Origin: Ruditapes philippinarum
Lineage: Eukaryota
Direction: 5' to 3'
Assembly: GCF_026571515.1 (NCBI RefSeq)
Contig: NW_026852366.1
Coordinates: 62,001 to 126,000 of the forward strand
DNA: 64,000 nt
In this document: positions 2,213 through 38,994 of the stretch, piece by piece
Numbering within the stretch: position 1 is the stretch's first letter
Layout of the letters: each line of letters starts with the position of its first letter
Program-made: the position numbers and the translations under genes
Notes under the pieces: model-generated
What the model saw: only the letters and a program-made list of their open reading frames with translations
What the model was told of the DNA's origin: nothing
The model's database searches: none

Positions 2213-5200
2213 TCAGCATTTTGGAACGCGTAGCTCTCCCGCATTTGTTTTACCTTTACCTTTCTTCCCTTCTAGAGGCATATCTTTAATCTTCTCAACT
2301 AGGAACCTAAATAAAGACAAAAACAATTCAATGAGCACCATGTTCAAACGTAACAAGATGTATAGTTGCAATGCCATATGTGACGAAGATAGGATTAAAA
2401 TTATATATGAAAGGGAAAAATATAATGTTTGGTTGAAAAATTGCCGTTCTTTGCAAAATCTTTACTTAACCCTTAGTCCTTTTAGTGGCGACAGATTAAA
2501 CTCATGTGATCAGTGCAAACCCAACCAAGAAATCAGCGGCCAATTTGTGCCATTTGATAGTCAAAAATGTCTATTTTCAGTCAATATTTTTAATTTCGTC
2601 TGTATGGTTTTATCTCCGTATTAAGGCATGTTAAGGGTAAAAGAAAATCATAATATCATTAATTAAATATACGTTCTAAGCATAAAATGAGCACCCGCTG
2701 AACTTATATCACTTGCCGAATTATACATACCACCAGAAAGAAACTCAATATAATTATTATCGACCTTTTATGTCAGTGATTGACCTTTGATCTTGAACGT
2801 CACGTTCACGTTACATCTTGAATGTAACCTGGAAGAATGGTCGGATACCGCCATTATGTCACTTTTTATTATAATGGTAGCGCCAGAGTTAACAAACTTA
2901 CCTCACATCCGTGTCCTGCAAATCTTCAACATTGGTACACAACACCTCGATGAACCGGTTTTTAATCCGCTCTTTTATGTCTCTTTTTGACGAAGTCCCG
3001 TATACATCTTGTACAGCATCTGACAGCGTATATGAGTTTTTCTTCATAAAATTGAGAATCTTCCCCCATTTGGTTGGGTTTGAAGTGAAAGATTTTAATA
3101 TAAGGAGCGTTTCATCCCTGCCTACCACATTTACATCGGCTGCTGTGGTAATCTGTGGCTCTGGAGAAGTAGAAATCTCGCCTGTAAAGTATCGTTATAT
3201 CTTTAATATTCGAGTTCTAGAAGAAAGGTTCTAGAATAGACTCTTTAAGAGACCTCGAACATGTTCAAACACAAATCAAAAATGCATTCTAAAATGAGTT
3301 TAATGATTTCGATAACAGTCTGCCAATTAAGATTTCTTTAATTTAATGTAATCTTAAGGGGCAAAATTTTATTCTGTCAAATGATGTTTTTGATTTATTT
3401 CAAATAAATATACCCAACAAAATAGTCATAAATTTTCCTATATAAAAAAATGGATCATTAATTTGAGTAGTGGTATATGTAACAATATGCTTCTTTTTCT
3501 GACTACATTTTATTTAATATACACGTAGTGTGGGTTCGAATACAACCAAGGAGAATGAGGAGCTGTTATTTATGTATTCAGCCGATAATCTCTAAGATTT
3601 GAACTTATGTTCGTGCAATAAATTTTTTATCACCCCTCACTTTTTTCGTAATGGTAATTTCCCATAGGCCCCTGGGAGTTAATCTTACTGTAAATGTAAG
3701 TGCACCAGGTGAATTTTGTACTTATTACTTTTTAACAGTATAAAATCTGGTCACGTGGTCTATTTTCTAAAATAAAAAGAAATAAAATGGCCGCCATTTT
3801 CTTTCTTGATTCATGAATTCTTATGTTCGAAGTTAAACACGATAGGACACCTATAAAATTTAGTTCTTTCCACCCTAGAGTGCTTTTTGCGTATAAAATA
3901 TCTTTTTGTTGAATAGTCAAAAAGTAAACATCCGTTTTCAACAGAAGTAATTATAATTGTTATGCGAATAATAATGTGTCAAACTGGGACATGCAGACGA
4001 TTAAAGCATGCAACAAAGGATCATTTAACAATTTTAACCAGTAAAACTGACAAACACAGGATATCATTGTGTTATTTTGTAAATGCACTTTGTCAAAAAC
4101 CATGCGAAGAGAATATTCTGGATACAGAAGGATCATATTTCACAGATCATAACCGTATAAATGGGTTTGTGTTTTGTTTTCTAAATAAAACGCAGTTTAT
4201 TGTGTGTTTATCATTGGTAGATATCATCACTTGTATAAAGAATAAAAGAGAGAAAAAAAACTTCTCAAATATGCCTACAGTACACTTAAAACCTAAAAGG
4301 TAAGGATAGTTTAGATATTGTTACTCTTGGTTTATTTTGTTTAAATTTAGATTTTACTTGACAATTTTAGATCATCGCAGATTTTGTTCGAGGCTATGCC
4401 TCGGGTAACAGTATTTTCCTCGGGATGATAGTTTTACTGTTACCCACAAACCCATGTGTTATTTATGTTATGTCAGTTGGAAAATTATAAGAATTCTATA
4501 CTGTCACTGATGCTACTATCATTTACATCACCAAAACTACAACAACTACTACTGCCACCACAACCATCAATACTACTATTTTCACTATTACATAGCCACT
4601 TCTCCTGCCACCGCCATCCCCCACCACACACCACCACCAACATTACCACCACGACTTATACTTAAGTAACAACAATCTACTTTTACTAACATTTCCCCTT
4701 ATTTTCCTCCCCTCCCTTATGAACGACTTCCACCTATCGCTGTCGCTGAAAACAAAGCATAACATTTAATTTTTATACTTTACTTCTTTCACTTACACTT
4801 TGATTAATACTTTTACTACCACAACTAACACAACCACTATCTATATAATCTATATTGTTACTTACCCATTTACTGTCACTTATTCGACTACTTCTACAAC
4901 CACTTCAACAACCACCACCATCACTACCACAACCACCACTATATCTACTGTTACTAACCGGTATCCTCTTCAGTCACTTCTACGACTCTTTCTACGACCA
5001 CTACCACCACCACCACCACCACAACTATCACTAACACTTCCAGTACCACCACTACTACTACTACAACTACTACCACCACCACTACCACTACTAGTGCTAG
5101 TACACTACGTTGAACTACTATTTTTTCTATCACCATTTGCAGAAAAAAACAACGAAAACAATATTATTATATTAATGACGATGATGATGATGATGATAGT

Positions 5201-7971
5201 GATGATGCTGATGATGATGATGTTGATGCTGATGATGAAATAGTAGAAGACGATAAAGTTGATTTTGTTGTTGATGATGAAGACCACGATGATGATGGTT
5301 ACGAAAGAAAAGAACAATAAGAAGATTTTGCTGCTACTGATGGTGATGATGATGATAATGCTTAAAAAATAAATAAGATGAAATACTTGACGATCCTTGA
5401 AAATCGTTGTAGAAACGTCCCAAAGTGGTAAGTTCTGAACGGTCGGGTTTTAATAGACTTGCAGATGTGGTAACAAATCCAGACGTCTTTATTCTTGCTG
5501 AATACCAGGAATATCTACAACCGAAGATGTAAATGTATAGTAATAATGGTTATATCATTTGCGTAGTTGGTATACTTTAAAATATGATTAATTCAATATT
5601 ATATATACTGACATTTTTTTAATTGGTTTAAAATAAATGAATACCGAATAAAATGACATGAGTATGTTTCTGTGTTTAATACGAAGACACATCATATTTC
5701 TGTGTGATTGTTAGCCCAATCTAAACTAAAGACGCTTAAAAGCTTTTTTTTTTATTTCTTGGGGGTATTTTCTCACAACCCAAATAATTATATTGGAGAA
5801 ACAAAGTGAGCGAATAATCTGCGCTTTTGCAATCAAGTTAATGGTCCTGACCTACATGAAATATTTGGTAAACAAGTCTTAAAAAAATCAATTCTGTCAT
5901 GTATAAACGCCTCAGTTTAGTCAACTAAATATGCTTACAAAAATGTGTGTTTATATTCGATTCACTATAACATATCATCACTGTCAATAAGTTTCCCGAA
6001 TATTAAAAAAAAATGTTAAAAAGTAATAACTGTAACATAAATATTGTTGGAAAACTAAATCAAAATTCATCTTCTTGATATAATATAACGAAAACGGAAG
6101 TTAGTGTTCAGTTTAAAAAGTTTTGATGAATTGAGCAGTAACTGTGAAATAGCGGTAACAATATAAATTATTAGGAACATTTTGTATACCTGAAAACAAA
6201 ATCGGCGTCCTCCAGCGCTGGTAGTATTTGTTCCATAAAATCTAATTGTTCCATCTCATATGTTGTTTGGCCACAAGCAAACTCAGTGAGCCAAATCTTT
6301 CGATTGTATCTTTTGAAGAGTTGCCACAAGTAATTCATCACTTTACCAGGGTCACACCAATACGTGTGTGCCGCTAGGTAATCCACTCTACAATCTTTGC
6401 AAAGCTCGAAAAACTTATCGAACCATTCAAAGTCGTTGACATTACACTCATAACCGCAAGGGGCAGCTGAAGGGCTCACAAGCTTTCTTCCATCAGAATT
6501 CTTTTCAACTTCTTTCCACGCAGCAGCAGCTTTCTCAGGTGACATATTTGATTGTTTCTTGTGATTTGGCTCATTGAAACCAAGGACAAACTGTTGTGAC
6601 TCGTCCGGAAGGTTAATCACAGTATCTCTCCAATATCCCCAAACCATGGGGACATAGTTATACAAATAAGTATCAACGCTGGATGTACAAATGTCGTTCT
6701 TGTGGAAATAGTCAAGATTCATTCTGAAGTCATACCTGTGTAAAGATACCTTCTATTTATATATGAAAAAACTAAAATTTCGATTTAAAAAAATCAAGTT
6801 TGTTCATATTTAGTTATTTATCCATCAGTTAAATCAATGATATCTTGAACGTATTGATACTGTATCTCAAAGAAATTTGATAAATTTTCATAAAAGTTCA
6901 TATGAAACAAACATGGCGTAGTCCGAATCGCCTCCTAAATGAAAAAAATGATGTCACTCAAAAGGGAAGATTCTAGATAAGTTCTTAGCTTGAATACGAT
7001 TTAAAGAAATCGTTGCTGATTAAAAAGTCATAGTCGGAAACTATATCCGCCATATTTGCTAATATGCTTCTTATTCGCATGAATTTTTATATTTTTGTTT
7101 AACGAGAACTTAATATGAATTTCCGTTTATTATTTTCAAATTGTTGTTCAGAGTAACTGACGCTTTTTTAGGTACCCCCCCCCCCCAAAAAAAAAGCTGT
7201 TATCATTCACATATAACCATGGTATTTTGTTTCATTGGTTATTTTTCTCATGTTACTGTTCATAGAAAATTTGCTGTAGAATTTAAATGTATTTTAAAAA
7301 AAAAATCACATACACGTGCTGCTTTTGCGATTCTGTAAAAATGGCACTGCATAGCCGTACTTTAATTTTGACGTGACGTCATTTGCGTTAAACAAATATA
7401 GCGTTTACAGGCGCGAAATGCTAACGTTATCATATAGGCGCGTCATTTTTTTCTACTTCAAACGGTATTTATATTTGGCATGTGATAAATAGAGGATTCA
7501 AGAATTCGTGAAAGTTTATTACCGAATTTATTGAACTCGTTTAATAAAATAATAATTTACTCGCCAGAGGCTTGCATAATATATATTTTTATCCAACTCG
7601 CTCAATTAATTCAGTATTTGTTATCCCAGGAAAACGGATTAAGCAAATGATTGGATATATATTTTGATTAAGACATACATCCCTTTGTACACAAATCTTC
7701 AAAAATATGTTCGGTCCCTCAATGTCAAAAATTAAAAACTTAGTTAAGCCCATAACGTACAAATTAAAAACAAATATAAGTACTGACTTTTATTTACATA
7801 CGTTTTACAAATAAATAAAAAGACTTACCACCAATTAATGTTGTCTAAAACTTTAAAATCATCGCATTCATAGCTGTCAGCCCAATGTACAACTCCTTTT
7901 TTCACTGACCCTTTGACGGTACAGGCCAAAGCGACAAAAACAAGACCACAGTTCCATACCACTTGCATCAT
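2213..7971 (-). CDS. Secreted GH128 beta-1,3-glucanase-like protein, paralogue 1 (~396 aa; signal peptide + GH128 + short linker + helical C-terminal domain)
   Basis: Exons 7829-7971, 6190-6735, 5387-5514, 2902-3181, 2213-2306; all GT-AG and phase-consistent (total 1191 nt). Starts MMQVVWNCGLVFVALACTVKGSVKKGVVHW. Carries the GH128/clan GH-A motifs YVPMVWG, VLGFNEPN (acid/base Glu), LVSPS, DYLAAHTY, KIWLTEFA (nucleophile Glu), RYSWYS. Ends ...GELRVPKC*. AATAAA on the - strand at 2139-2144. The exon 3 donor (gtattt) is weak but sits at the same position as in the paralogues. Confidence 0.88.
4490..5360. repeat. Low-complexity trinucleotide tracts (ACC/ACT)n then (GAT)n in intron 3 of GH128-1
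   Basis: Degenerate microsatellites that generate the spurious poly-T/P/V/M/I ORFs in the track. Confidence 0.85.
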
Positions 7972-8269: not shown

Positions 8270-11200
8270 AACAAGTAAATTCCACATTTAATTGGAAAAC
8301 ACGTTCCTGACATGCTTTTATCGCATGTGATGTTGCAAACTCTGTACTTTTTATTTGTAGATATTGAATCAATCTTTTAATTAAATGGTATGTTGTAAAA
8401 GACGACACACCTTATAAAGCCTTGCTTGTTTTTTTAAAGAAAAATTTTTAAAATTAAATTTTTTGAAAAATAAAATTTTGAATGGAAAAACAACCATTCT
8501 CCATAACATTTAGTACATAAAGACGCCTTTTACGGGGCATAAAAGTTGACACAAACATGCACCGTTTACAATAAGGGAAAGCTTTGATTCTCTATTACTA
8601 GGTTATAAATGAAGTACGCAGCTGCAAAACCTATATAAGACACAGTAAGCACTTCGTCAAAGAGGGCTTTGTGTATTCGTCCAATACAATTCAGTACTGT
8701 TCTCAATAATGAATAATAACCTTAAAATTTATGATAATATTAACAATGTTAGAAACAGCTGTACAATGATTGATTATGATAATACATTATATATACTGTA
8801 ATAAAGATGTCACACATTGAAAAGTATACATTGTGAAATGTTAATATCTTTAGGTAAAGTGAAAACCATGTCATTCATGTCGACAAAGGCAGCATTTCAG
8901 CATGAATACAACACGACTGAAATGTTCATGTACATATTACATGTATTAGCAAATCTTTACTGAACATCATGCAATAAAACAATAAAAACATTGTTGATAT
9001 TAGCATATCAATATTTTATATATTTAATCAGTATTTTCAATATAATTATACTTGATATGATATATGCCATGGAATATCAATGTAAGGTACAATAGGGGAC
9101 GGCTCTTTATCCGATTGCACTCATTACGGGGGAAATAAATGAGCAACTTTTGCGGAAGAAAAAAAAATCGGAGTAGTAACAATTTAAAGCAAAATTGATT
9201 AGACAGTAGTAGCAGCATTGTATGACCAGAGAGAATAATCACATTGCAGTGAGGGTTACCGCAATATAACTTAAGGCATCTGACTACTTTTTAACATATA
9301 TTAAACTTGGATCACCGGTTTATTGCATTCTATAAAATTTAATGAACATTTGTAATATAGAACGAATGAAGTGTATATTTTAAATATACACTTTTATTTA
9401 ATTTTACCCATGAACTTTGATGCTTTACTTAATTTAAGCCATATATCAGTCAAATTTATTTCATATTTTTTTCAAAATTAATATGAAATATAAATATAAA
9501 AGTGGGCGGAGTCAATACTCATATTTATTTTCAGGTACTTCTTTCGCATTTTGTTTGAAAAATCTGATAAATACAAAACAACTTTTGTTGAATTTTGTTT
9601 TGAAAACTATTTAGAATGATAGAAAATGGTCTAACCAAGAAATTAAATACGAACACCAATATCTTTAATTCTAACACGACCCGCATTTTCCCCTGTTGAG
9701 CATGGAAGAACCGAAAGTGTGTGTTATTATGGTAAAAAATCACTGTTTGACGTTCTATATTTAGACATGTGACGTAATCATTGTACACGTGATGTAACCA
9801 CTAAAATGTGACGTGCTGACAATAACTACGGAAACAAATCAGGCGTAATTTAGCTAAATATCAGGTACGGCAGCATTTATTTTTTGATGTCCTGTTAGAA
9901 TCGAAATAATATATCCAAATCGATTTTATCGCATGATAACAACACTGTTTGTCGTTCGGATGCGCATCAGTATATCACTCGGGCTACGCCCTCGTGATAT
10001 AATTCCCCGCATCCGAACTCCAAACAGTGATGTTATTTAACAGTGACGTCACAATGTAGCGCTAAATATCGCGTGTAAAACAAGACAATAATTATATTAC
10101 TGCGCGCTGCACAATTGCAGTTGCGTAACAAGCAAGGGGGTTCGTAACCATTATTCTTTGATGATGAAATTAAATAAAAAGGTTATTTTCGTTTTTTTGT
10201 GAAATATGGAATATATTTTCACTTTTCATGATAAAATGCCACATATTTCACGAAAAATGAAAAAAATATCAGTCACATAAATAAAATAAATATAAAACAT
10301 AAATATAAAGGTGGGCGGAGTCAAAGCTCATATTAAGTTTAAGGGACTTCTTTCGCCATCTGATAAATAAAAGTTGTTTTTTTTTTGTTGAATTTTGTTT
10401 TGAAAACTATCTAAAATGATAGAAAATGGTCTAACCAAGAAAACGAATCGGAACAGCAATATCTTTAATTCAGTCATTAACGCTGTACAGACGTGAAAAG
10501 AGTTGTTTACATGACGTCACAATGTAGCGCCAAACTTCGCGTGCAAAACAAGACGTATCTATAAACAATCATTCTAACACGACCCAAATGTTTCCCCATA
10601 GAACATAGAAGAACCGAAAGTGTGTGTAATTATGCATTAAAATCACAGTTTGACGTTCTATATATAGACACGTGACGTAACCACTAAAAATGTGACGCGC
10701 TGAAAATAATTAGGGAAATAAATCAGGCGCAATATAGGTTAATATCAGGTACGGCAGCATTTATTTGTTGATGTCGTGTTAGAATCGAAATAACATATCC
10801 AAAACAGTGATTTTATCGCTGTCGTTCGGATGCGCATCATATTATATCACTCGGGCTACGCCCTCGTGATATAATTCCTCTCATCTGAACTCCAAACAGT
10901 GATATTATTGGACGATAAAATCACTGTTTTGGATATATTAGTTCTATATAAAAATAAATATATATATATATATATAAATATATTACAGCGTGCTGTCGAT
11001 TGCAGTTGCGTAACAAGCAAGGGGGTTCGTAACCATTTTTCTTTGATAATAAAATTAAATTAAAAGGTTATTTTTTCGTTTTTCGTGAAATATGGTATAT
11101 ATTATCACTCAGCATGATAAAATGCCACATATTTTCACCAGAAATATGTGGCACTTTATCATATTTCGTGAAAATATATTCCATATTTCACGAAAAACGA

Positions 11201-17122: not shown

Positions 17123-17125
17123 TAA

Positions 17126-17295: not shown

Positions 17296-17299
17296 TTAA

Positions 17300-18039: not shown

Positions 18040-18900
18040 TAATATCCCGACAAACATTTTGTTAGGCTTTTATCTCATCATTATAAAGCATATCTATCGA
18101 ATATTTTAAGAAATTACTTTTACATACTCCTGATACACATTTTGGAATGTATTTAGAATATTTGTTTTTGAATTTCTTTACAAACTCATGTTGGAAAGTA
18201 GCAATTCTATCATTTTGAAACGTATATATGCTATCTATCATTTTAGAACGCAGACATTCCATCATTTTGCAACTTCTTTATGCTATCACTTTGGAACGTA
18301 TTTATGCTATCATTTTAGAATGTAGTCATTCTATCATTTTGAAACATATATATGCTTTCATTTTGGAATGTATTTACACTATCATTTGAAAACTATTCAT
18401 TTTATCATTTTGGAACGCATTTATGCTATCATTTTTTGAAATGGTAATCGTTTTCGACCTTATTGATAATATCATTTGAGAACTTATTTACAATAACATT
18501 TTGAAACTTATTGATAATATCATTTTGGAACTTATCTAGTGTAATAATATCATTTTGGAATTTATTTACACTATTATTTGGGATCGTATATACACCACTA
18601 TTTATAAACGTAGTTATGCTGTCATTTTGGAATGCAGTCATTTTATCGGTTTAGAATGAATTTACATTAAAAATATGCCATTTTTGAACGTTAAAATCAT
18701 AATATATGATGAAAAAAACTCATTATTACATAATCCCAATACATATTTTGGAACATATTACACTTATTTCTGCCATTTTGGAACGTTTATGTCTTATAGT
18801 CCAAATACATATTTTGGAACATATTTACACTTCTGTCTGTCAATTTTGAACGTATTAATCTTATTGTCCCGGAACACATGTTGGAACGCAAAGCTCTTCA
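18040..18900 (-). repeat. Degenerate ~24-nt tandem repeat array immediately 3' of GH128-2
   Basis: Units resemble cattttggaacgtatttatgctat on the + strand. The first unit overlaps the last codons of the gene. Confidence 0.8.
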
Positions 18901-21900
18901 GGTTTATCGCACTCTCCCACTCGTAACTTTTGTATCCGTTCAACCTCTTTGCTTGAAAATAAAATATACATTGATATGAATAAAACATACATTTATCAAC
19001 GAAGTCGCATTTTGCTATCATGTCTATGGTGCGTTTTTATTGTAAGTCACAGACATAGACAAAATTGAATCTTATTTGCTATAGCTTTGCCTCATGTCTC
19101 ATATTCAGTCTAAAACATACATTTTGAAACAAATAATCTTCACCAATGAGACACAATCTTTGCGAAGGTTCTGTTTTGAAACGTACAAATTAAAGGTCAG
19201 CAGATACAAAATAAAATACATACAAAAATACATGGTATTTTGTCACTTTTGGCGGCCACATTGGCGACCATCTTGAATTTTTGTACTTTTGCCCGGACTT
19301 CGTAACTTAAGAAATGGGTTTTTAGAAACTACAAACAATATGCTTTATAATGGCAATGTTCTTTTTTGTGATACAGTGAACTGCAATAAAAAACAGCCAT
19401 TTTTTCATAAATTACAGAGTTAAACCAAATCCGACGTTTATCAAATAAACTCAATTCCCCCATTTCTATAGAGACTTTTCGGCCTTAGACTAATGCTTTT
19501 CACATTGACTTCCGGTAAATTATAAGTCTACTTGCAATCCATTGTAAAGTAATTGCCGCACTAATTACGATTAATACGTATGCTACTTCATGCCAAACAT
19601 ACGCAAGAAATATTTTGTAACATAAAGTAATACGAATTGCTTTATGTTTCATTATGTAAATTTGTTAATAAGATATATTTTAGAGAATTTGTTTGGAATG
19701 ATAGCATAAATATAATTATGTTTTTCCATATCTGTATTCCCTATAGGTAGTTCTTTCCTTAATCCGTGCGATACACTATTACCAGGGTGGATGATCACGT
19801 TACATATTTGTATAAGTAAATTTGGGTCAACGCTAATGGCCGCGCGCATCGCTTAAATTTATGTTTTCTTATTTAGGTCATATCTTTCAAAATTAAAATA
19901 GCATATATTTAAATACCAAATTCCAGTCAAATTTTTGCCGTTCCGATGTAGCTCTCTTTTTCGGCCATAGGCCGTCTGTTTTCGGTTGGACTTCCTGTAA
20001 AATGTACAGGGAATAACTTAATATAATGTTAGAATTTCAGTGATCATTTAAAAATTACAATCTGAAATCTCGGAATCCGATTGGCCATTGTAAAATTAGT
20101 AAACTAACATAAACGATGTTTCGGACATGGTATACGCGTCAAATTTTTAATTGGTCTATAGGAGGTCTGGAAACGATCTATTTACATTGATAACATATAT
20201 AAGCTCTTTCACTATCAAGTGTTATTTCAGATACATAAATTCGAGATGATACAGTAAAATAAATTCCAATAAAAGGCTCAATATCATAATCTGTATGATA
20301 TAGTGGCTGATTTGGAACGTTATTCTGCGTCGTGTTGGTGCTAGCGACGACAGGACAGGGCGCCAAACGACGCGTTGTTGGATTTTCTTTGTGTTGTCCT
20401 GTCGCTAACGATGTATGTCAACGACGCGTTGTCGTGCGGCGTGTTGTCGCGATGTCACATTGTCGCTCAGTTCAAATCAAAGGATTGGATTATAAGTCAG
20501 GCGACAGGGCGACATCGCGACAACGCGCCGCACAAGAACGCGCCGTTTGACGTACATCGTTAGCGACAGGATGACAAGACGAAAATCCGACAACGCGCCA
20601 GTTGGCGCTTTGTCATGTTGTCGCTAGCGACAAGACGAAAAAGCGATAACGAATCAGGTTGCGTTGTCGTTATCGACAATGCAATGCACAATGCACGAAA
20701 TCAGCTACCATAGTATGATATCCTCAGATTCGATATGCAAATAAGCAAGTTTTAATTCGGCCAAGCATCTTATGTAAGGATGATACGTCTTGTTATTTCC
20801 GTTATGCTTGCAGAAGTTTTTCTATGCGATCGGCATTGTCAATATTTGCCTGGAGCATGGTATATGTTTATTTTTCAAATATTGAAAGATGCAACGAACA
20901 AAAAGCAAATACTTTTTTAATCAGGGGCACGGTCATTAGCGGTGACCCAATGGTAACCTTATAACTCTCTCAAATTACTGAACATTGATGCTATACTTAG
21001 GTTATATCTAACAATGAATCGAACAGATTCAACACGATTGAGGAATAATGTCAATGATTCCTCTTGTTTTATATACAGGTTTAACTAGAGCAAGTCGAAA
21101 TATATAAAAATATATTAATATTCACCTGATGGCACTGTTTTGTATTGTATTAACATCGCAGCACATGATTGCAGTAAACGCCTGTTGTATCCTGTCCATG
21201 AGAACCGTCTCTGATGCTGTCTGGTAAAGTGCTTGTACATTTTTAGACAATGTATCTGACTGCCGTTTTACATATTTAAGCATTTTGCTCAGGTCAGATG
21301 GATTGGTTTTGTATGACTGCAGTATTAGTAGCGTCTCTTCTGTACTGAATTCAGTGCTCCCGCAGTTGTTATTATTGTTGTTTGTGGTAGTGGTTACCTG
21401 TGCAGGTGTGGAAGTGGTAGTTACACTTGGTTCATTTGTGATAACTGCTGTACTTGGTTCATTTGTAATGACTGTTACTGTAATGAAAAGTTTACATGTT
21501 GCATTTCCATCTAGCACAATTACAGCTAGCGCGCGCTCAAACAATGTAATTAAAAGCATGGAGATTAGGCAAAGTGTCATGAGTATATGTCCCGTTCCAC
21601 ACTTTTAGATCAAATATATTATATTGACTTTAATTCTCTAAAGAGCAATTAACTGTGCCGTCAGTGGACAAGTACATTGGAACCAAGTATAATACACGTC
21701 CTGTTGCACAGATACCTCTTGCGTGCCCACTGGGTGACCAGATGGAACCGTCGGACATTTGGACAGTCTAATCAGACTCTATTGCGACTGTTGATTAATT
21801 CTAACATTTTATGTAATAGTCGCTCACCTTCGTACGTGAAAGTCTCAGAGTCAAGTACAAGTATGATAGGTTCATAACAAGTCGGTTCCATGTATTTATC

Positions 21901-24900
21901 GTAAAGAAACTTCTTTGGTAACTGTTTATAGTAAATGTACTTGTAAATAAGCGCAAATTAAATATTATTTTAGTCCTATCCCGCCCCATGTAGAATAGAA
22001 ATGGCTATATTGCAGCTTTAGTGTTACGATTACAAATCCTGATGTTTCGCAAACACATTGCTATATCTTTTAAAACAGCGGGAATACAATACTTTTGTGA
22101 GAATGAGACAAGACAGAACTTGTGTTTTCGAAGTTATTTTAAAAATAAACCTTGAGAATTGATAAAAATGATCATCCTGCATTTATTTCCCTTCCTGAAC
22201 TAAGCTCGCTTTAAGGGTTACAAATCTAACTGAGCTTGTAGGCAAGCAGTCATGTTGGTATTTTTCCTTAAAATAAAGTCTCACAAAGGAAAACGAAAAA
22301 ATTAACAAAAGGATTATTCCAATATTACCCGAAATTAATCGCTATTTGCTGATTCATCAGGGTTCGTAAGATGTTTATCATGTAATTAGCCCAATAACCC
22401 ACAATTTGTTTTGTGTGTTAATGTAAGACTTACCCGCCTCTCCTTGATAATTATTGTAGAAGCGACCAAGTTCAGTAAGTTCAGATCGATCTTGCGCCAG
22501 AAGACTGGCGGCTTTGGTGATGAATCCTGAGACTGTTTTTAGTCTAGCACTGTACCATGCATATCTACGAATGAAAAACAAAACACAACATAATCGACAA
22601 AATTACCCTTTTATTCAAAACATTATTCGAATGAAAAGTTCGATAACACCATATAACGGCTGTAATAGGCTATTCGTAAACCAAATGATTCAGGTGCACT
22701 AGTCCCTAACTGCCATATGTTCGAACTCATCCATGACCCCTGGGTCATTTCATGTGAGGAGCTACGTAATTACGGAAGGCCGAAAGCAGTATACTTGTTT
22801 ATGGTTGGCAAAATCCATGAACGAATATTTGAAATATTTCACCACCTATAAGCTTTATAATTATAATTCTCAAATGGTAAGGGGAGTTCTACGTGAATTC
22901 CAAACAAAATGATATCATATTAAAATTAATACATTTAAATCACCTATGAGAATACTATTCATTTGAAATACATTCAAATAACCTCTAATTAAAGCATTTG
23001 AGTAGATAATTTTAAAATTATATATTTTGTCTCCGGTATATTTACCTAAATATGAATTCAGCCGCTTCTAATTGTGGTAACATGTCTTGCATAAAATACA
23101 ATTGTTCAAGCTCATATGGCGATTCTTTGCACGCAAACTCTGTCAGCCAAATTTTTCGTCCGTATCTCAGATACAAGCTCTCCAAATACGCCATTGTTTT
23201 GACCGCGTCACACCAATATGTGTGAGTAGCGAGGTAATCCACTCGGCAGTTTATACAGAGTTCGAAAAACTTGTCAAACCATTCGATTTCAGTGCTTCTA
23301 CAGTTCTCGCCACACTCTGCCGCAGATGGGCTCACTAGTGGTTTCCCTTTGGAATTCTTTTCAACTTCTATCCATGCTGCGGCTGCTTTTTCAGGTGACA
23401 TATTGGACTGCGCTCCGTGATTTGGTTCATTGAAACCGAGGACGAATTCAGCGGCATCGTCAATTATGATGACGGTGTCACTCCAGTATCCCCAAACCAT
23501 GGGAACATAGTTGTATTTGTAGTTATCGATTGAAGAAACACAAATATTGTTCTCGTGGAAATAACTTAGATTCATTCTGAAGTCAAACCTGTAAAAAAGT
23601 TAACAAACAAATCATCTTTAAATGTTTACTGTCATATTTTTATTTTACTAAACAATCAAAGGTCTGTTCCTTGTTTAATTATTGTTGATTTTGTTATTTG
23701 TACAACAATATTAAGGGAGAAATTTGAAGAACGTAAAACATCATCGGTTTTAAGTACGGGAGCTGAGTATTATCTTTGAAAGAAATTATCTTAGTCTTTG
23801 TTCCAATTACGTAAATTATTTCATTTGTGTAAGTACATTCATTTTTTTATATTTTATTTTCCAACCTTATATCTTCGTGGTAGGTATATATAGTAGATGA
23901 TAAAAAACGTAATAAAATATGACATGAAAACACAATAATTTAAAATATGGTTCCGGGCAAATTTAGAAAAAGAAGAAAAAGAAAAACATAACAACATAAC
24001 CAAAACCACTCGAAACAACCAAAATTCAGTTTGATTGTATATTTTATTATTATTATATTCATATTTTATTGTTTAAAATGAAGACCGTAAGTATAACGAG
24101 TGCAAAAAGTCGTAAATACAGAAATGCTTTTGATCTTTAATCTGATGTCCTTTATATCCCGCAAGCAGGAAAATTATCTACATTTCTTAACATCCATATT
24201 TATGAAAGCCTAGACACATATCCGTATTTTATCTTTTTTATTATTTTTTTTTCTTTTTCGTTTAACCAGTCATAATTTCAAGTTTAATCATTAAAAATAA
24301 TAAACTGTGTTAAAAAAAGAGACAAAAGTTCAAAAAAGTTATCTGTTTTATTATTGATGTGCGTTGATGAAAAATGACAGTCTTGACCTTTTATATTACA
24401 TAAATCAGCACATAAATCAAAAGAATATCAATAAATGAGCCGCGTCATGACAAAACCAACATAATGGGTTAGCGACCAGCATGGATCCAGACCAGCCTGC
24501 GCATCCGCGCAGTCTGATCAGGATCCATGCTGTTCGCTATCAGTTTCTTTACTTGCTATAGGGTGTGTAAGCGAACAGCATGGATCCTGATCAGACTGCG
24601 CGGATGCGCAGGCTGGTCTGGATCCATGCTGGTCGCAAACCCACTATGTTGGTTTTGTCATGACACGGCTCAAATAATTTACGGTCAACTGTGTCTTCTT
24701 TGATCTTCATTTTATGAAAAAAGCGGTTATCGAATCAAAATGTTTGAAATATTTGATATTTATCAATGAATGAAAAGTAGTTTAACATACCTGACATGTT
24801 GTTTTTTTTATTTGATTAAATCATCAAATAAATCTATTACATAATTGAAGGCAAAAAACAAATAAGATATAAACTAAAGCACTTTATTTCACCGATTTTT

Positions 24901-27900: not shown

Positions 27901-29138
27901 AGAATATTTTCTCTAATTCAACCATTTTAAAAGCGCTAAATATTACTATAACTCATTCTACTTTTCACATGTTAAATATTGTTCTATGGGCCTTGGATCC
28001 TGGGAAAGGTTTAATTAGAGTATACTAAAAGTAAAGTATTCTTATCTAAAAACAACCCAAATGTGACTCATTTCTATTTTCTGTAATTTATGATTGAAAT
28101 GCATTTGATGATGACGTTACATCTAGTAAGTTAATTCTAAACAACACTAGATCTCCTTTGCTCATAGACACATTTAAATATATACTACACACCCGATCAC
28201 GCTTCAGATGTAGCCTTCATAATCATGATCTTTGAGTTCATTGAAAATAAAATACGTGTGGAGATGTTGGTCATACACTGCTTTTAAATAAAGTTTCAAA
28301 TCAAATTTCCTCGGTGTAGAAAAAGTGTTGTTGGTACAAAAAACATAACCAAAAGTGTAATGCAGATGCCGACAACGAAGCACAGTGACTATAAAATTCG
28401 AGCCTAAAACTAGACAAAATTAAATATTGACAAACTAGAACGAATGAAAGAAATATTATTTTTAATAAATATGAATGGTTGAAATAAATGCTATTTTTTT
28501 TAATAATTATGATAATTTTCTAACTAGTTCGGAATTCAATAGTGTACTGATTTTTTTTTATCTCCGATGAAAGTTCAAATTTCTCGTTAATAAAAATAGA
28601 AAATAAATTATTTTTCAAGCTAATTATAAGCAAGCATAAATGTATACATATATTTTTTATTAATTTACTCATTACATTTATCTCGTTATTTGATTTAGTT
28701 ATTTATAACATCATTAATTTTTTTCACCTCTCCTAAATTCAATGTCAGAGCCAAATGATACAATTAGTATGCCGAAGTTAAACAAATGAGAATAGAAAAA
28801 AAGAGCAGTAAGATAAATAAGAAATAAAAAACGAAAAAGAAAAGTCAAGAATACGAAAAAAACCAGAAGAAACGAGGAAAAGAACCGCAAATAAAAGAAC
28901 AGACAGCGATAGTGTGAGAGACAAATAAAAAGAAAGAACGTTCAAAAAGGGAACAAATCAAGGAAAGTGAAGATGAAGAAAATGAAAAATTGTAAAACAC
29001 TCACCACCATGTCATGTTATTCAATACTTTAAAATCATCGCACAAGTAATCGTCGGCCCAGTGTACCACGCCTTTTTTAACTGACCCGTCCACAAGAACT
29101 TCAAGCAATACAAAACAATACAACGGTGTCATCACCAT
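18861..29138 (-). CDS. Secreted GH128 beta-1,3-glucanase-like protein, paralogue 2 (~416 aa)
   Basis: Exons 29005-29138, 23046-23588, 22434-22564, 21126-21477, 18861-18951; GT-AG, same phases as paralogue 1 (total 1251 nt). Starts MVMTPLYCFVLLEVLVDGSVKKGVVHW. FNEPN and WLTEF intact; Thr-rich linker. Last exon SKEVERIQKLRVGECDKPEELCVPTCVPGQ* was identified by similarity to the last exons of the paralogues. Confidence 0.88.
20301..20712. mobile_element. GC-rich foldback MITE with 8-bp target site duplication (hAT-like TSD length), intron 4 of GH128-2
   Basis: gtatgata at 20293-20300 and 20713-20720. Imperfect terminal inverted repeats (tagtggctgattt / aaatcagctaccata). The interior is a long imperfect palindrome centred near 20485. 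Confidence 0.75.
24436..24672. mobile_element. Near-perfect palindromic MITE (~100-bp arms), intron 1 of GH128-2
   Basis: tgagccgcgtcatgacaaaaccaacataatgggtt... is mirrored by ...cccactatgttggttttgtcatgacacggctca, with a ~30-nt spacer. Confidence 0.9.
25660..26728 (+). repeat. Recent ~370-bp direct duplication (25660-26041 and 26364-26728) in intron 1 of GH128-2
   Basis: Both copies run from taccgctcggtacaggtaggttataaattt to gctgccgttgtaggcagatact, with few substitutions and one ~15-nt indel. Confidence 0.9.
27683..27782. mobile_element. Internally deleted copy of the 24436-24672 palindromic MITE
   Basis: Same arms (gtcatgacaaaaccaacataatgggtttgcgaccagcat ... atgctggtcgcaaacccattatgttggttttgtc) with the centre removed. 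Confidence 0.88.
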
Positions 29139-29227: not shown

Positions 29228-29238
29228 TTATATATATA
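29228..29238 (-). promoter_or_regulatory. Putative TATA box of GH128-2
   Basis: TATATATATAA about 90 nt upstream of the ATG, followed by a G-run. GH128-3 has the same arrangement. Confidence 0.45.
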
Positions 29239-31189: not shown

Positions 31190-31770
31190 CGCTTTGAAAC
31201 ATTTGAAATAAACGTATAATATGAAATGCATCCTGTTGTCCCGACAAACATTTTAAAACGTATTTATCCTTTTATTTTAGAGCATAAAATAATATCCTAT
31301 TGCAAGGACATCTATCAAAGAATGATTCATTCTTTTTGTTTAATACCTTGAAATTAATTGTTTAATTCCTTTGTACAATTACACCTTTTTTTATTAAAAC
31401 GTATCTATCCGTTAGTTTTAGAACTTGAAATATATCCTTTTGTTCCGATACACATCTAGGAATTCATTAATTCTTTCATTTTGGAACTTAGAATATAATT
31501 ATATCACATTGTCTCGATATACATTTTAGAACGTATTTATCCTTTCATTTTAGAACATCAAAACTATCCTTTTGTCCCGATACACATTTAAGAACGTTAT
31601 ACTTTCATTTTGAAAATGTTTATCTTGATGTCCCGATACATATTTTAGATTGTAGCAATCCATTTATTTTACAACTGTCCTGATATTTATTCTACAAGGA
31701 CTTTATGTTTTCAGTTTAGAAAGTAAAATTATCTTATTGTCACGATACACATTTTGGAACGTACAGCTTT
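31190..31770 (-). repeat. Degenerate tandem repeat array 3' of GH128-3, related to the array behind GH128-2
   Basis: Alternating units tgtcccgatacacattttagaacg and tatcctttcattttagaac. The first unit overlaps the terminal codons VPKCVS*. Confidence 0.75.
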
Positions 31771-34700
31771 CCAGTTTTCTTGCTCTTTTCCAAAGGCATC
31801 TTCCGAATACGCTTGATTAGTTTCCTTAAAATAAATAAATATATTAAATAAATAAATAAGTTCAAACCGATAATGCTTTAAAAATCAAACCAATATTTCG
31901 TTTATAATAATGTATACTCGAATATGTGCTTAGGGTGGTCTTCGAATCACGATGTAATATAGGTTGCAGTTTATATCAATTTAGGTACCCAGTGGCAGTT
32001 TTCAACAATAAAAAACTATCATCAAATGCCACATTCCCAATTTATAAAGTGCTTTTAACACATGTCCAGGAAAGCAAGTAAAATATTGCAAAACTAAAAT
32101 ATCTATTTTTAGAAAGTATTCACCTGATTGCTCTGCTTTGTATTGTCTTCAAATCACAGCATATTATTGCAGTGAAAGCCATTTCTATTCTGTCTATGAG
32201 ATATGATTTCGATGGTGTCTTGTAAAGTGATTTTACCGCTTCTGACAGTTTAGCGGATCGTCGCTTTACATATCTAAGCATTTTTCTTAAGACGGTCGGA
32301 TTGGACTGGTAGGACTGTAGTACTAATATAGTCTCTTCTGCACTGAATTTAGTGCTTTCGCAGACATTGTTGTTGTATGTGGTAGTTGTAACTTGTACAG
32401 GCGTAGTTGTGGTAACTACACTTGGTGTACTTGTGGTTACTTCTGCTAAAATAAGAAACGGTGGAATATTAAAACAAACATTTCATGCCAAAGCGCATGC
32501 GCGCATGTACGCAAGCAAATTCATGGTTAAAATAATTTAAAAAAGATGTTAAAAGGAAAATTTAAGTTAGACATAAGTTATTAAATTGAATGTGAATTAA
32601 CTTTTAAAAATACATGTATAACACCTACCGATTTTGCAAATCAGACGTTCAGGTTTTAGAATTTAGATAAAGATTTAATTGAAAAACACAATTGCCGTAG
32701 AGGCTAACAAAGAGACCCCAGGGTACTTTTATCATAAACTTTTTAAGTTTTCTTTAAGAGTAACAAACATTACTGAGCTTGTGTGCGAGCCACCATATTG
32801 CTTTCTTGTTCTCTTTAACTCAAGTTGTGACATCTCAAAAACAAAATTCACCCTTTCACGGAACAAAGTTGTACGAAAATAAGTATGATGAGAGTTTGCG
32901 ACATTAACGATTTACTGTACTACCTGAAATTCAACTATTCATTAGGGTTAAGCAATATATTCTTGCCTTTGATAGACACTATTCCCGAAATAGATGTTTA
33001 CTTTATTATGATACGTACTTGTCTCCCCTTGATAGTTATTGTAGAGGCGACCAAGTTCAGTAAGTTCAGATCGATCTTTCTTCAGAAGGCTTGCGGCTGT
33101 GGTGATGAATCCGGACTTTGTCAGCCTAGCCCTGTACCAAGCATATCTACGAACAAATNNNNNNNNNNNNNNNNNNNNNNNNNNNNNNNNNNNNNNNNNN
33201 NNNNNNNNNNNNNNNNNNNNNNNNNNNNNNNNNNNNNNNNNNNNNNNNNNNNNNNNNNNNNNNNNNNNNNNNNNNNNNNNNNNNNNNNNNNNNNACAATT
33301 CATGTCTATTTCCTTTTTTTCGAACATTTTACAAATGAGAGGTCGGTAATACCCTCTTTTTTTAAATATTGTTCAATTGAGAGGTCGGTAAGACAATCTT
33401 AACAGTTGCCATAGGTCACCCGTGCATCAAGTGATTAAGATAGCTTAGTTTGAAGCACTTGCCCCTCGACGCTGTGAGTTCGACCCCCTGTCAGGAACGT
33501 TGGTTTGTGTCGCGTGAAGACATAAACTGGACAGACGACTGATGCTGTGACGCTCTAACATTGTTTAAATTGTTCATGTCGGAAAGAAAATGCAGGGAGA
33601 AACAATTTGCATCTATCTCTATCTGTTACGAAGTCTGAACTGTTTGACGAGATAAATGCAAACAAAATAATTACATTTGTCAAATTAATTCATATCATGT
33701 CTAAGAAATAAATATTTTACATTTGAGAAAAATGATCTTAAGATAGCATGTTAGATGCTTCGGTAATTGTTTTACCTATATATGTAGTCAGCAGCTTCAA
33801 GTCGCGGTAACATGTCTTTCATATAATTCAGTTGTTCCAACTCATACGGCGATTCGCCGCAAGCAAACTCTGTCAGCCAAATTTTTCGCCCGTATCTCTT
33901 GAACAAACTCTCCAAATACGTCATTGTTTTGTTTGCATTACACCAATACGTGTGTGTTGCGAGGTAATCAACTCGGCAGTCTTTGCAGAGTTCGAAGAAC
34001 TTGTCAAACCATTCGATTTCAGTACTTCTACAGTTCTTTCCACACACTGCCGCTGATGGGCTCACTAGTGGTTTCCCTTTAGAATGCTTTTCTACCTCTT
34101 TCCATGCTGCAGCCGCTTTTTCTGGCGACATATTGGATTGCTCTACGTGATTTGGCTCATTGAAACCGAGGACGAATTCAGCCGCATCGTCAATAAAGAT
34201 CTTCGTGTCACTCCAGTATCCCCAAACCATGGGGACATAGTTGTGTTTGTAGTTATCGATTGATGACTTGCAAATATTTTTCTCGTGGAAATAATCTAGA
34301 CTCATTCTAAAGTCAAACCTACAAAATTACAAAAAATCTTTAAAAACATTATAATTTTATATGTATACATTCATTGCGGTATACATGTATTATATTGATT
34401 TAAAAATAGTATAATCTTTAAGCACGACTCTACATTTCCGTTTACATTCAGAAATAGAATGCTTATAATTATCATATAGTCTTACTTTATTTTTGTCTCA
34501 TTCGTATACATACATTTTTGTTACATCACAAAAAGCATGCATACGGTCATTCTAATTAAGAATTTGTTGTTGTTCTTATTGAATAAGTTAGAATAATTAT
34601 CTGTCGCACAATTTTTTTCAATGTTATATTTTGTAATNNNNNNNNNNNNNNNNNNNNNNNNNNNNNNNNNNNNNNNNNNNNNNNNNNNNNNNNNNNNNNN

Positions 34701-36867: not shown

Positions 36868-36899
<32 letters not shown>

Positions 36900-38994
36900 A
36901 ACTTAAAATAATAATGATCGTAAATAATTACGTAAATAATTAATATATTATACTTGTGTCACACACCACCCGTGACGCTGTTGGTACAGATATAACCCAT
37001 ATCACATTGGTATATTATTGACTTTAACGGGTGAAATATAAGGCATATCAGTGTTCGTTTTAATAAAGTGTTTGATTCAAATCGTAATATAAACCATTTA
37101 TTTAAGACACATTGTGCCCCAGAAAAGATTATTTTATTCATTAAAAAGGGTAAAAATAAGTTGTATGGCATGCTAATCACCTGAGGAAAGTAGCGTTGAA
37201 TTTAAAATTACTAATTTTGTTATTAAAGTAGTAAAATAGAGACAAAGTAGTATTTTGACTTCTATACAAAATACTGAATCACTATATTTTTACTAATTGT
37301 CAAAAAAGCAAAAGAAGCAAGATGTTTCAGTGACCAGCGAGTAACGTTTTTTGAAGCTATAGCAGGACAGCAGAATAAAAGGTTTTGAGAAATTATAATA
37401 AAAGCATTTCTGGGTTTTAATCGGCTTTTAAGTTATTGGAATTAATGAAATATAATCAAAATCGATAATTGTTGAGTATATCAATAAATAATAAAAATGT
37501 CTTGAAGACTAGTAATTGTTAGTTTATTGATTTTATAACTTAATGTCTTGATTCTAGTTCATTTATTTTTTGCGGGTTTTTACATATGTTACATATCGAC
37601 ATTCCAGCACATAGATGTCTGTTTGGTTTCATTTTTAGGATGAAATGTACCATCGACATTCGTGTTTGCTTCTTCCAATGAATACACTTATAAGAAGCAT
37701 ACACCAATTTCATGTCTATTTCATAGACAGGTGATCTTCATTTGGACGTTACTTCATTTTATTTTTAAATGATGGATTAATAATCAAAATTAATTGATAA
37801 TAATTATAATATTATAATTATTGAAATTGATAAAAAGGGTGATACAATAAGCATGATTATTTTTATTCAGACTGAGGTGTTCTTTAACACAGGCTTGACA
37901 TTTTTAGGCGAAAAAATATGCAAAACATCAATCATTTTCAAGTTAATTGTATGCAAAAACGAATTTTTGTACACGCTATTTTACAACCACATATTTTTAA
38001 ATACCAAACACCTCTTTCATTNNNNNNNNNNNNNNNNNNNNNNNNNNNNNNNNNNNNNNNNNNNNNNNNNNNNNNNNNNNNNNNNNNNNNNNNNNNNNNN
38101 NNNNNNNNNNNNNNNNNNNNNNNNNNNNNNNNNNNNNNNNNNNNNNNNNNNNNNNNNNNNNNNNNNNNNNNNNNNNNNNNNNNNNNNNNNNNNNNNNNNN
38201 NNNNNNNNNNNNNNNNNNNNNNNNNNNNNNNNNNNNNNNNNNNNNNTCCAATCATTTTTCATTCTCTTAAGTTAATCATTAAAGGTTGTTGGTTAACAAA
38301 AAAGTTTTCCTCACACTGATTAATTCATACATCATAAAGGCTTACCTCATTTAATTAAAACGATGACCTCTCCTTACCTTCTACCTTAATATGATCATTT
38401 TCAAGAAAAATTACTTTATAATGGAACTTTCAAATTATATATAATTATATAAAATTAAATAAAAGAACATTACCATAATTTAGTCCGTATTTCCTTTTAT
38501 ATAAATCATATAAAGGGAACGGAACTTGATAAAGATGATGATATAAAAAGGAGGAAAAGAAAAAAAGATGATGATGAAAAACATGAGGAAAAAGGAATAC
38601 ATAACGGTAAGGACATAATTCTGTAGATGAATAAAGAAAAAGAAAAGAAGAAGATAATTAGATAAAGAAAATGGGAGAAAAGATAAATAGGAAGAAGAAG
38701 ACGACACAGAGAAAAATAATTAGCAATAGAAATAGAAGAACAACAAATAGAGTAACAACAACAACAATAACAACATGACGAAAAACATGAGGACGGAAAC
38801 TAAGAAAGAAATTAGACTAAACAAATTAAAGAGAAACAATAACTACAAGACAAAAACAATACTTACCACCATGTCATGTTATTCAATATTTCAAAATCAT
38901 CACACATATAACTATCTGCCCAGTGTACCACGCCCTTTTTGCTTGACCCCTCCACAAGAACTACCAGCAATACAATACCGAACAATGATTTCAT
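31740..38994 (-). CDS. Secreted GH128 beta-1,3-glucanase-like protein, paralogue 3 (~401 aa)
   Basis: Exons 38867-38994, 33776-34318, 33019-33146, 32124-32445 (NAGNAG acceptor), 31740-31824; GT-AG, conserved phases (total 1206 nt). Starts MKSLFGIVLLVVLVEGSSKKGVVHW. FNEPN and WLTEF intact. Ends RKLIKRIRKMPLEKSKKTGKLYVPKCVS*. Three N-gaps lie in its introns. Confidence 0.88.
33159..33294. other. Assembly gap (other gaps: 34638-34800, 38022-38246, 52781-52923)
   Basis: Runs of N. Confidence 1.
33415..33545 (+). mobile_element. Degenerate tRNA-derived SINE 5' part in intron 2 of GH128-3 (a remnant lies at the equivalent site in GH128-2, ~22700-22860)
   Basis: cacttgcccctcgacgctgtgagttcgaccc resembles the head of the SINE at ~46165. 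22700-22860 has tgttcgaactc...ttcatgtgagga. Confidence 0.5.
35150..35690. repeat. Degenerate short-unit repeat (ttcacgaattcacgatttc-like) in alternating orientations, probably a foldback-type element
   Basis: Many ttcacga / tcgtgaa / gaattc units that switch strand near 35240 and 35550. Confidence 0.7.
36289..36559 (+). mobile_element. tRNA-derived SINE with V-domain-like core and 15-bp TSD, intron 1 of GH128-3
   Basis: TSD cacagacgttcacag at 36274-36288 and 36560-36574. Box B gggttcgattccc. Core gtctttcggatgag..gtcccgtgt..gcacgttaaagaacc resembles V-SINE central domains. Confidence 0.8.

What the first reader, a model, noticed from the sequence alone, without database searches (positions are those of the whole stretch)
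2213..38994. Tandem array of intron-containing, catalytically intact GH128 beta-1,3-glucanases in an animal genome
Seen: three 5-exon paralogues with identical intron phases, signal peptides and both clan GH-A glutamates (FNEPN, WLTEF). Known: GH128 (Pfam Glyco_hydro_cc) is characterised mainly from fungi and bacteria, while the familiar mollusc laminarinases are GH16. Inference: this is a lineage-specific expansion, for digesting algal laminarin/chrysolaminarin or attacking fungal/oomycete walls. It may descend from an old horizontal transfer, now fully domesticated with introns and host repeats.
Basis: partly seen in the sequence, partly recalled or inferred. Interest (0 to 1): 0.75.

Follow-up and report, generated by a model that had tools for sequence, protein, structure and literature searches.

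The report
Clam glucanases carrying a transposon domain
A clam genome holds three neighbouring intron-containing genes for GH128 enzymes, predicted to be secreted and likely to cut algal beta-1,3-glucan, and each ends in an extra domain likely captured from a transposon's DNA-binding protein, an odd cargo for an enzyme that would work outside the cell.

Summary
Three minus-strand five-exon genes (A, B, C) have intron phases 2,2,1,2, Pfam PF11790 hits and both catalytic glutamates. Gene A equals RefSeq Ruditapes philippinarum LOC132758231, and a fourth copy probably lies just left of the window. The transfer idea is only partly alive: relatives in other bivalves, snails and an annelid form one animal clade, a clam-level transfer from bacteria is rejected (AU p=0.0002), and an older origin is unresolved. 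They encode a ~100-residue helical domain related to 106 stand-alone proteins (bivalve wherever named) with a Myb/SANT-like predicted fold and a break at the same intron position. In the one locus retrieved, a relative lies beside a PIF/Harbinger-type transposase. The fused domains form one nested clade, seen only in Ruditapes, Mercenaria and two unnamed sequences. They are spliced onto the enzyme in an RNA-like contig, show purifying selection (dN/dS 0.31) and have gained a cysteine. Best reading: likely digestive endo-beta-1,3-glucanases with an exon-captured transposon domain reused as an extracellular tether. Activity, tissue and the domain's role are untested.

The parts
7829..7971 (-). 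Gene A exon 1: predicted signal peptide and start of the GH128 domain
   Evidence: model identical to RefSeq P0263
6190..6735 (-). Gene A exon 2: GH128 core with acid/base E103, H171/Y173 and nucleophile E199
5387..5514 (-). Gene A exon 3: end of GH128 domain, phase-1 donor
2902..3181 (-). Gene A exon 4: short linker and Myb/SANT-like domain (phase 1 to phase 2)
2213..2306 (-). Gene A exon 5: last helix, basic tail, terminal Cys, stop
29005..29138 (-). Gene B exon 1
23046..23588 (-). Gene B exon 2: GH128 core
   Evidence: short RNA-like contig piece
22434..22564 (-). Gene B exon 3
21126..21477 (-). Gene B exon 4: Thr-rich linker and Myb/SANT-like domain (acceptor uncertain, candidates 21444-21525)
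   Evidence: contig piece 21126-21319
18861..18951 (-). Gene B probable exon 5 (weakly supported)
38867..39003 (-). Gene C exon 1
   Evidence: P0121 starts the same
33776..34318 (-). Gene C exon 2: GH128 core
33019..33146 (-). Gene C exon 3 (RefSeq model P0121 reads on into intron 3 instead)
32124..32445 (-). Gene C exon 4: Thr-rich linker and Myb/SANT-like domain
   Evidence: (joined to exon 3 in contig record 6 of run X1)
31740..31824 (-). Gene C exon 5
2..50 (-). Copy of gene A's upstream sequence; probable start of a fourth paralogue beyond the window edge

Best explanation
These are three tandem venerid-clam genes for GH128 enzymes, predicted to be secreted and likely to act as retaining endo-beta-1,3-glucanases on dietary algal glucan, each carrying behind a linker a Myb/SANT-like domain that was likely captured by splicing from the accessory gene of a PIF/Harbinger-type transposon and would now serve as an extracellular tether. 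Shown: gene structure, GH128 membership, catalytic residues, homology of exons 4-5 to a multicopy stand-alone bivalve family, and splicing of gene C exon 3 to exon 4 in one RNA-like contig. Inferred steps, with rough odds: (1) secreted, active enzyme using E103 as acid/base and E199 as nucleophile (gene A numbering), 0.85. (2) Main job is digesting laminarin/chrysolaminarin from filtered algae rather than defence, 0.6. (3) The stand-alone family is a transposon accessory (ORF2) family, 0.8. (4) One capture in a venerid ancestor: the phase-1 donor of GH128 exon 3 was spliced to the Myb-bearing exon, keeping its downstream phase-2 intron, 0.75. (5) The domain lost its nuclear-localisation cluster, gained a likely disulfide, and holds the enzyme on polyanionic gut mucus or food particles; about 0.35, against glucan binding 0.25, structural or relic 0.3, other 0.1.
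For: PF11790 hits far above the cut-off. Best solved relatives are 6UAX (E 3e-33) and 8J3X (E 1.7e-26); these are GH128 subgroup II and CBM6E (PMC10956234, section 6). Of 12 active-site residues named for CBM6E in that paper, gene A keeps 7 identical and 2 as other aromatics (alignment). A profile of 7 clam domains finds 116 proteins at E<=0.001 among 1.84 billion, 106 of them stand-alone; 8 of 9 stand-alone proteins looked up carry a name, all bivalve. Profile-profile probability 99.5% over 87 columns. 14 of 78 aligned members hit Myb_DNA-binding weakly. Model at pLDDT 84; top fold matches are Myb-type DNA-binding domains NgTRF (Z 6.2, rmsd 2.8, 74 aligned) and Sap1 (Z 5.9-6.3, rmsd 3.4, 80-82 aligned). 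Locus L001 has a relative divergently beside HTH_Tnp_4 (E 1.3e-9) and DDE_Tnp_4 (E 4.7e-16). Of 63 stand-alone hits that end inside the domain (106 examined), 27 stop at column 78, the clam exon 4/5 border; the next commonest column has 3. Fused domains form one clade (99) inside the stand-alone family, and a Cys is in 10 of 10 fused and 0 of 97 stand-alone rows. dN/dS B versus C: 0.23 for GH128, 0.31 for the domain. Contig record 6 of run X1 joins exons 2, 3 and 4 of gene C at the predicted borders.
Against: No activity, tissue or localisation data. Raw RNA reads from three runs cover the exon-bearing bins only thinly (about 1x or less), and X1 is only guessed to be RNA. The RefSeq model of gene C lacks exons 4-5. 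The transposase link rests on one locus; no terminal repeats were found there, and four further scans found no locus. Pfam Myb hits are below the curated cut-off and the clam domains themselves have none. Fold Z-scores of about 6 lie within the range the tool calls common for helical bundles; Foldseek found nothing. The B domain is acidic (pI 5.1) while A and C are basic (9.4, 10.3), which argues against one shared charge-tether role. B and C have lost the conserved Trp and several basic residues. Three CBM6E subsite residues are not kept (D142, F171, W276). The domain tree has only 85 columns.
Confidence: 0.62

Rival explanations
1. The enzymes serve defence or tissue clearing (attack on fungal, oomycete or protist beta-glucan walls, or release of glucan signals), and the captured domain traps nucleic acid or microbes in mucus.
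For: Tandem expansion with divergent paralogues (56-71% identity) and swapped C-terminal modules (TSP1 repeats in P0006, Thr-rich tails in P0005 and P0008) resemble immune families (inference). A and C domains are basic, and one Arg is kept in 10 of 10 fused and 95% of stand-alone rows.
Against: Characterised mollusc beta-1,3-glucanases (GH16) come from digestive organs (PMC7551256, passages). Related GH128s occur in grazers and filter feeders. No haemocyte data.
Confidence: 0.2
2. The C-terminal domain has become a new glucan-binding module, in the position that CBM6 takes in bacterial CBM6E.
For: Same architecture: GH128, linker, C-terminal module (PMC10956234). A second Trp follows the conserved one in 5 of 10 fused rows and is not among the common residues in stand-alone rows.
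Against: None of the three window genes has that second Trp, and B and C lack both. No carbohydrate-binding match in Pfam or fold searches.
Confidence: 0.2
3. The domain is a passenger kept only as a folded terminal cap that supplies a stop and 3' end, or it came from an ordinary host Myb-like nuclear gene, not from a transposon.
For: It diverges faster than the enzyme (36-60% versus 70-84% identity). Many animal GH128s are annotated without it. Only one transposase-linked locus was seen. The TSNARE1 preprint floats a relic reading for its own Myb-like domain (10.1101/2021.02.09.430442, passages).
Against: dN/dS 0.31, retention in two genera, and an invariant new Cys. The stand-alone family is multicopy and divergent within species, as expected of transposon genes.
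Confidence: 0.2
4. The genes descend from a recent horizontal transfer from bacteria into the clam lineage, or the fusion is an annotation artefact of a transposon lying downstream.
For: The nearest named non-animal relatives are Myxococcota-type bacteria. The RefSeq gene C model stops before exon 4.
Against: AU test rejects clam clade plus bacteria (p 0.00024). The exon 3-4 junction is spliced. Unnamed proteins P0001 and P0264 hold the whole fusion on 1635- and 1505-base contigs. The L001 transposase pieces give only one weak hit in the window (E 0.044).
Confidence: 0.03

Closest known systems
GH128 subgroup II endo-beta-1,3-glucanases: ScGH128_II (6UAX), PvGH128_II (6UAV), Saccharophagus CBM6E (8J3X)
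   Same: Best solved relatives; NEP acid/base, H-x-Y and TE nucleophile motifs and the main negative-subsite Trp are kept (PMC10956234 sections 6-7).
   Different: Animal, intron-containing and in a separate clade; W117 to Phe, W276 absent; the C-terminal module is Myb/SANT-like, not CBM6.
PIF/Harbinger (PHIS superfamily) Myb/SANT accessory protein (ORF2)
   Same: Myb-type predicted fold; stand-alone relatives carry a basic cluster before the domain, are multicopy, and in L001 lie beside an HTH_Tnp_4/DDE_Tnp_4 transposase, the two-ORF layout described in PMC4482050.
   Different: In the clam the domain is the tail of a signal-peptide-bearing enzyme, lacks the basic cluster and the acidic and C-terminal parts, has a new Cys, and has no clear transposase in the window.
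TSNARE1 and MSANTD/NAIF1, domesticated Harbinger Myb-like genes of vertebrates
   Same: A Harbinger Myb-like domain kept in a host gene; in TSNARE1 fused to an unrelated domain (10.1101/2021.02.09.430442, PMC9392472; passages).
   Different: TSNARE1 is reported in cytoplasm and nucleus, and the others as DNA or protein binders; here the partner is a glycoside hydrolase predicted to be secreted.
Mollusc GH16 laminarinases (e.g. scallop Lcf)
   Same: Likely the same substrate and organ (PMC7551256, passages).
   Different: Unrelated family with an EXDX(X)E motif; GH128 appears in that paper only in a list of families.

Membership tests
GH128 (PF11790) | Profile match above curated cut-off | tested here: met
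   132-146 bits on exon 2 alone against cut-off 21; 166.6 bits for full gene A. dbCAN itself was not available.
GH128 (PF11790) | Two catalytic glutamates with Asn, His and Tyr helpers | tested here: met
   N102/E103, H171, Y173, E199 of gene A align to N167/E168, H245, Y247, E272 of CBM6E (PMC10956234 section 7); the same motifs are in B and C.
GH128 (PF11790) | (alpha/beta)-barrel fold | tested here: inconclusive
   The full-length model from 4 sequences was poor (pLDDT 54.8) and was not searched; sequence matches to 13 solved GH128 chains imply the fold.
GH128 (PF11790) | Hydrolysis or binding of beta-1,3-glucan | not testable with these tools
   Needs recombinant assay.
GH128 subgroup II | Falls inside the subgroup II clade | tested here: not met
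   Animal sequences form their own clade beside the clade of Sorangium, Polyangium, Microbulbifer and Bacteroidota-like proteins. They work most like subgroup II but are not nested in it. PDB sequences were not in the tree.
PIF/Harbinger Myb/SANT ORF2 | Myb/SANT trihelix domain | tested here: inconclusive
   Top fold hits are Myb-type (Z 5.9-6.3); 14 of 78 members have sub-cut-off Pfam Myb hits; Atlas neighbours of P0278 are Myb/MADF clusters but score under 0.9. Consistent, each weak alone.
PIF/Harbinger Myb/SANT ORF2 | Relatives paired with an HTH + DDE transposase ORF | tested here: met
   1 of 1 locus retrieved (L001); the transposase has an internal stop. The clam genes themselves have no clear transposase in the window.
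PIF/Harbinger Myb/SANT ORF2 | Terminal inverted repeats and TWA target duplication | tested here: inconclusive
   L001 ends inside the transposase, so one end is missing; no convincing pair.
PIF/Harbinger Myb/SANT ORF2 | Binds element ends and imports the transposase into the nucleus | not testable with these tools
   Role described in PMC9392472 (passage); unlikely for the clam fusion, which has a predicted signal peptide.
Horizontally acquired animal gene | Nested with support inside a donor clade | tested here: inconclusive
   Clam-level nesting rejected (p-AU 0.00024); origin of the whole animal clade unresolved (p-AU 0.285, 0.483).
Known carbohydrate-binding module | Match to a CBM profile or fold | tested here: inconclusive
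   No CBM among Pfam hits or listed fold rows; binding untested.

The most novel reading that the evidence does not exclude
A transposon's DNA-binding accessory domain was exon-captured by a secreted digestive enzyme in venerid clams and retooled, with a new disulfide, into an extracellular binding module for glucan or polyanions: domestication of a Harbinger Myb/SANT protein for work outside the cell, on an animal branch of GH128 for which no description was found in the literature searched.
Probability: 0.4. Interest if true: 0.82.

Novelty: new variant of a known kind. Interest (0 to 1): 0.64.

Why it matters
It points to a second, apparently undescribed family of animal beta-1,3-glucanases beside GH16, present across molluscs and an annelid. 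This bears on how filter feeders digest the main storage glucan of diatoms and brown algae (established knowledge). More unusual, the domesticated Harbinger Myb-like proteins in the papers read are intracellular DNA or protein binders. Here one seems fixed as the tail of a secreted enzyme, with the capture still readable in intron phases. The natural series (no tail, Myb-like tail, TSP1 tail, Thr-rich tail) makes it directly testable whether a DNA-binding fold can be reused as an extracellular binding module.

Tried and rejected
No whole genome was held for this window, so copy number and flanks of stand-alone relatives in the same species could not be surveyed. The full-length AlphaFold model was poor (pLDDT 54.8) and not used. 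Foldseek on the domain model found no match at E<=0.001; the PDB sequence search with the domain profile gave only E>=2.5. The Atlas search with gene C's domain gave unnamed small bacterial clusters (0.91-0.92) and lysozyme-like rows under 0.9; treated as noise. Four scans for more stand-alone loci found none. No listed holder run was on record as RNA. In one search the joint table was swamped by an intronic repeat and 552 rows were not shown, so raw-read splice junctions could not be seen; gene A, gene C exon 1 and gene B's junctions were not tested or not shown. My first guess for gene B exon 5 (near 19994) was dropped for lack of homology. The careful mixture-model tree did not finish; the quick version is reported. 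Synonymous sites between A and B or C are near saturation. Literature: searches for GH128 with mollusc, metazoa (22), horizontal gene transfer + animal (23), subgroup + laminarin (34), animals + CAZy + invertebrate (103), and PF11790 synonyms (69) listed no study of an animal GH128. One search was uninformative because GH128 was not required. Searches listed no secreted fusion of a Harbinger Myb-like domain. The library is open-access only and supplements were not read. Four look-ups of earlier scan findings returned nothing. No complex prediction was run, since no binding is claimed.
Full report
Observation. The window is AT-rich animal DNA (32% GC, four N gaps). FNEPN and WLTEF occur three times each, on the minus strand. 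Splicing by coordinates gives gene A (396 aa) and gene C (404 aa), with GT-AG introns and phases 2,2,1,2, and gene B (about 416 aa). For B, six exon-4 acceptors are in frame and exon 5 is a best guess (score 47 against 43). Exon 2 of each gene matches PF11790 at E 2e-38 to 3e-42. Gene A is identical to RefSeq LOC132758231 of Ruditapes philippinarum. Gene C matches LOC132758271 over 270 residues, after which that model reads into intron 3. LOC132758240 (P0003, 89% identical to A) is listed on a contig of the same length, and window positions 2-50 repeat gene A's upstream DNA at 94%. A fourth copy therefore probably starts just outside the window.

The enzyme. [quoted passage not shown] I mapped that paper's 12 active-site residues through the alignment, fixing the offset by the E168Q mutant chain. 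Gene A keeps W141, N167, E168, Q174, H245, Y247 and E272; it has Phe for W117 and Tyr for F310; it lacks D142, F171 and W276. B and C carry the same core motifs. All three have a hydrophobic N-terminus and no later membrane-like stretch. A secreted, active endo-glucanase is the inference; it is untested. Mollusc laminarinases characterised so far are GH16 from digestive organs (PMC7551256, passages), which makes digestion the likelier role by analogy only.

Origin of the enzyme. Named relatives occur in Mercenaria, Mactra, Mya, Dreissena, Mytilus, Haliotis, Littorina and Owenia, with further unnamed marine sequences; that some are copepod is my guess from domain make-up and comes from no call. 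In a 95-row tree all named animals fall in one 39-row clade (SH-aLRT 92). In a 50-row mixture-model quick tree they fall in a 24-row clade (96) that also holds unnamed rows and one long EukProt row. Subgroup-II-like bacteria form a separate clade (91 and 88). On 33 rows, forcing the four venerid fusion genes with the bacteria is rejected (p-AU 0.00024); forcing all animals with bacteria (0.285) or with fungi (0.483) is not. Rows were chosen by hand from my hits, and sampling of protists and other animals is thin. GH128 is also listed for the protist Goniomonas (PMC6260743, one table passage). So the family is at least as old as the mollusc-annelid split in this sample, expanded in venerids, and of unresolved deeper origin.

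The extra domain. Exons 4-5 encode a linker and about 100 residues with no significant Pfam match. A profile of 7 clam domains found 116 proteins at E<=0.001 among 1.84 billion. Three are GH128 fusions, seven look like fragments of such genes, and 106 are stand-alone. The longer stand-alone proteins are mostly about 200 residues, with a basic cluster, the shared domain, a low-complexity middle and often a conserved C-terminal motif. Eight of nine looked up are named, all uncharacterised bivalve proteins. The two profiles align over 87 columns at 99.5% probability, though the stand-alone set was found with the clam profile. Fourteen of 78 members hit Myb_DNA-binding below the cut-off. The clam domain folds at pLDDT 84 into five helices, and its best structural matches are the Myb-type DNA-binding domains of NgTRF and Sap1 (Z about 6), with SANT and Zeste domains lower; such Z values are modest for helical bundles. 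The only locus retrieved, L001, has a relative oriented away from an interrupted transposase matching HTH_Tnp_4 and DDE_Tnp_4, and that relative nests among the stand-alone proteins. This is the two-ORF layout of PIF/Harbinger and related PHIS elements (PMC4482050, passages), whose Myb-like protein binds element ends and imports the transposase (PMC9392472, passages).

How the fusion arose. The clam exon 4/5 border falls at profile column 78. Of 106 stand-alone hits, 63 end inside the domain and 27 of these stop at column 78, the next commonest column having 3. I read these as gene calls that ran into the same intron; that reading is inferred from proteins, not seen in their DNA. L001 has a plausible phase-1 GT-AG intron just before the domain, matching the phase of clam intron 3. 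The fused domains form one clade (99) nested among stand-alone proteins; its next relatives include Ruditapes and Mercenaria proteins (86, only 85 columns). Among 264 GH128-domain rows held, a profile of stand-alone proteins hits 12 strongly: the three window models and nine database proteins from Ruditapes, Mercenaria or unnamed Logan records; a truncated Mercenaria protein is weak. Other animals' annotated proteins lack it. One capture in a venerid ancestor fits.

Is the fusion real and selected? A 955-base contig of run X1 (RNA status guessed) lies on exons 2, 3 and 4 of gene C with breaks at the predicted borders. Two unnamed proteins hold the whole fusion on 1.5-1.6 kb contigs. Raw RNA reads of three runs of unknown tissue cover the exons thinly, so expression there is low. 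Between B and C, dN/dS is 0.23 for the enzyme and 0.31 for the domain. Of the 11 listed contig differences inside gene C's domain, 7 are synonymous (the table shown was partial). A cysteine is present in 10 of 10 fused and 0 of 97 stand-alone rows, and all full-length fusions aligned end in a Cys-bearing motif. A disulfide is inferred, not measured.

What the domain does. I commit, weakly, to a tether role. A DNA-binding fold is suited to grip polyanions; the domain sits on a linker that is probably glycosylated; and A and C domains are basic. Against this, B's domain is acidic, and B and C have lost the conserved Trp and part of the basic face. Glucan binding, a structural cap and a defence role remain open.

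Comparison and verdict. The genes are GH128 members by profile and catalytic residues; they work most like subgroup II but lie outside that clade. The tail is likely a domesticated Harbinger-type Myb/SANT domain; membership is supported by one locus, and fold and terminal repeats are inconclusive. The nearest precedent, TSNARE1, is intracellular (10.1101/2021.02.09.430442, passages). Harbinger elements are counted in the Mercenaria genome (PMC8905726, one table passage). A woodlouse holobiont paper lists GH128 without saying, in the passage read, whether host or microbes encode it (PMC6142342). Searches listed no description of an animal GH128 or of this fusion; subscription papers and supplements were not seen. 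The seven-subgroup scheme of Santos and colleagues is recalled, not read. Verdict: new variant of a known kind, interest 0.64.

Noticed in passing
window 40500-62700 (+): A second tandemly duplicated gene, about two copies plus a partial one: extracellular part with a weak DUF7042 hit (E 0.0009), Thr-rich stalk, transmembrane-like stretch and long cytoplasmic exon.
   Followed up: no
window 18138-18888, 31249-31761 and 2217-2228 (-): The last codons of all three genes match a 12-base motif that recurs as degenerate repeats downstream of B and C (32 matches against 7.5 expected); the terminal Cys codon and the 3' repeats may share an origin.
   Followed up: partly
window 33019-32948 (-): The RefSeq model of gene C reads into intron 3 and lacks the extra domain; either a mis-annotation or a short isoform that would give a natural tail-less enzyme.
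   Followed up: partly
proteins P0006, P0005, P0008, P0011, P0014: Animal-clade GH128s carry varied add-ons: TSP1 repeats, Thr-rich tails with hydrophobic ends, PAN domains and an unassigned N-terminal domain.
   Followed up: no
window 24424-24681 and 27674-27794: Palindromic interspersed repeat in gene B intron 1 that draws very high read depth; probably a miniature transposon.
   Followed up: no
L001 1-831 (-) and 1398-2526 (+): Degenerate Harbinger-type element: transposase with an internal stop, and an accessory ORF that lacks the last helix of the shared domain.
   Followed up: yes
window 8270-14450: Non-coding segmental duplications between genes A and B (75-81% identity), likely traces of the tandem duplications.
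   Followed up: no
window 16237-16481 and 16888-17133: Inverted pair of 248 bases at 92% identity, a likely non-autonomous DNA transposon.
   Followed up: no
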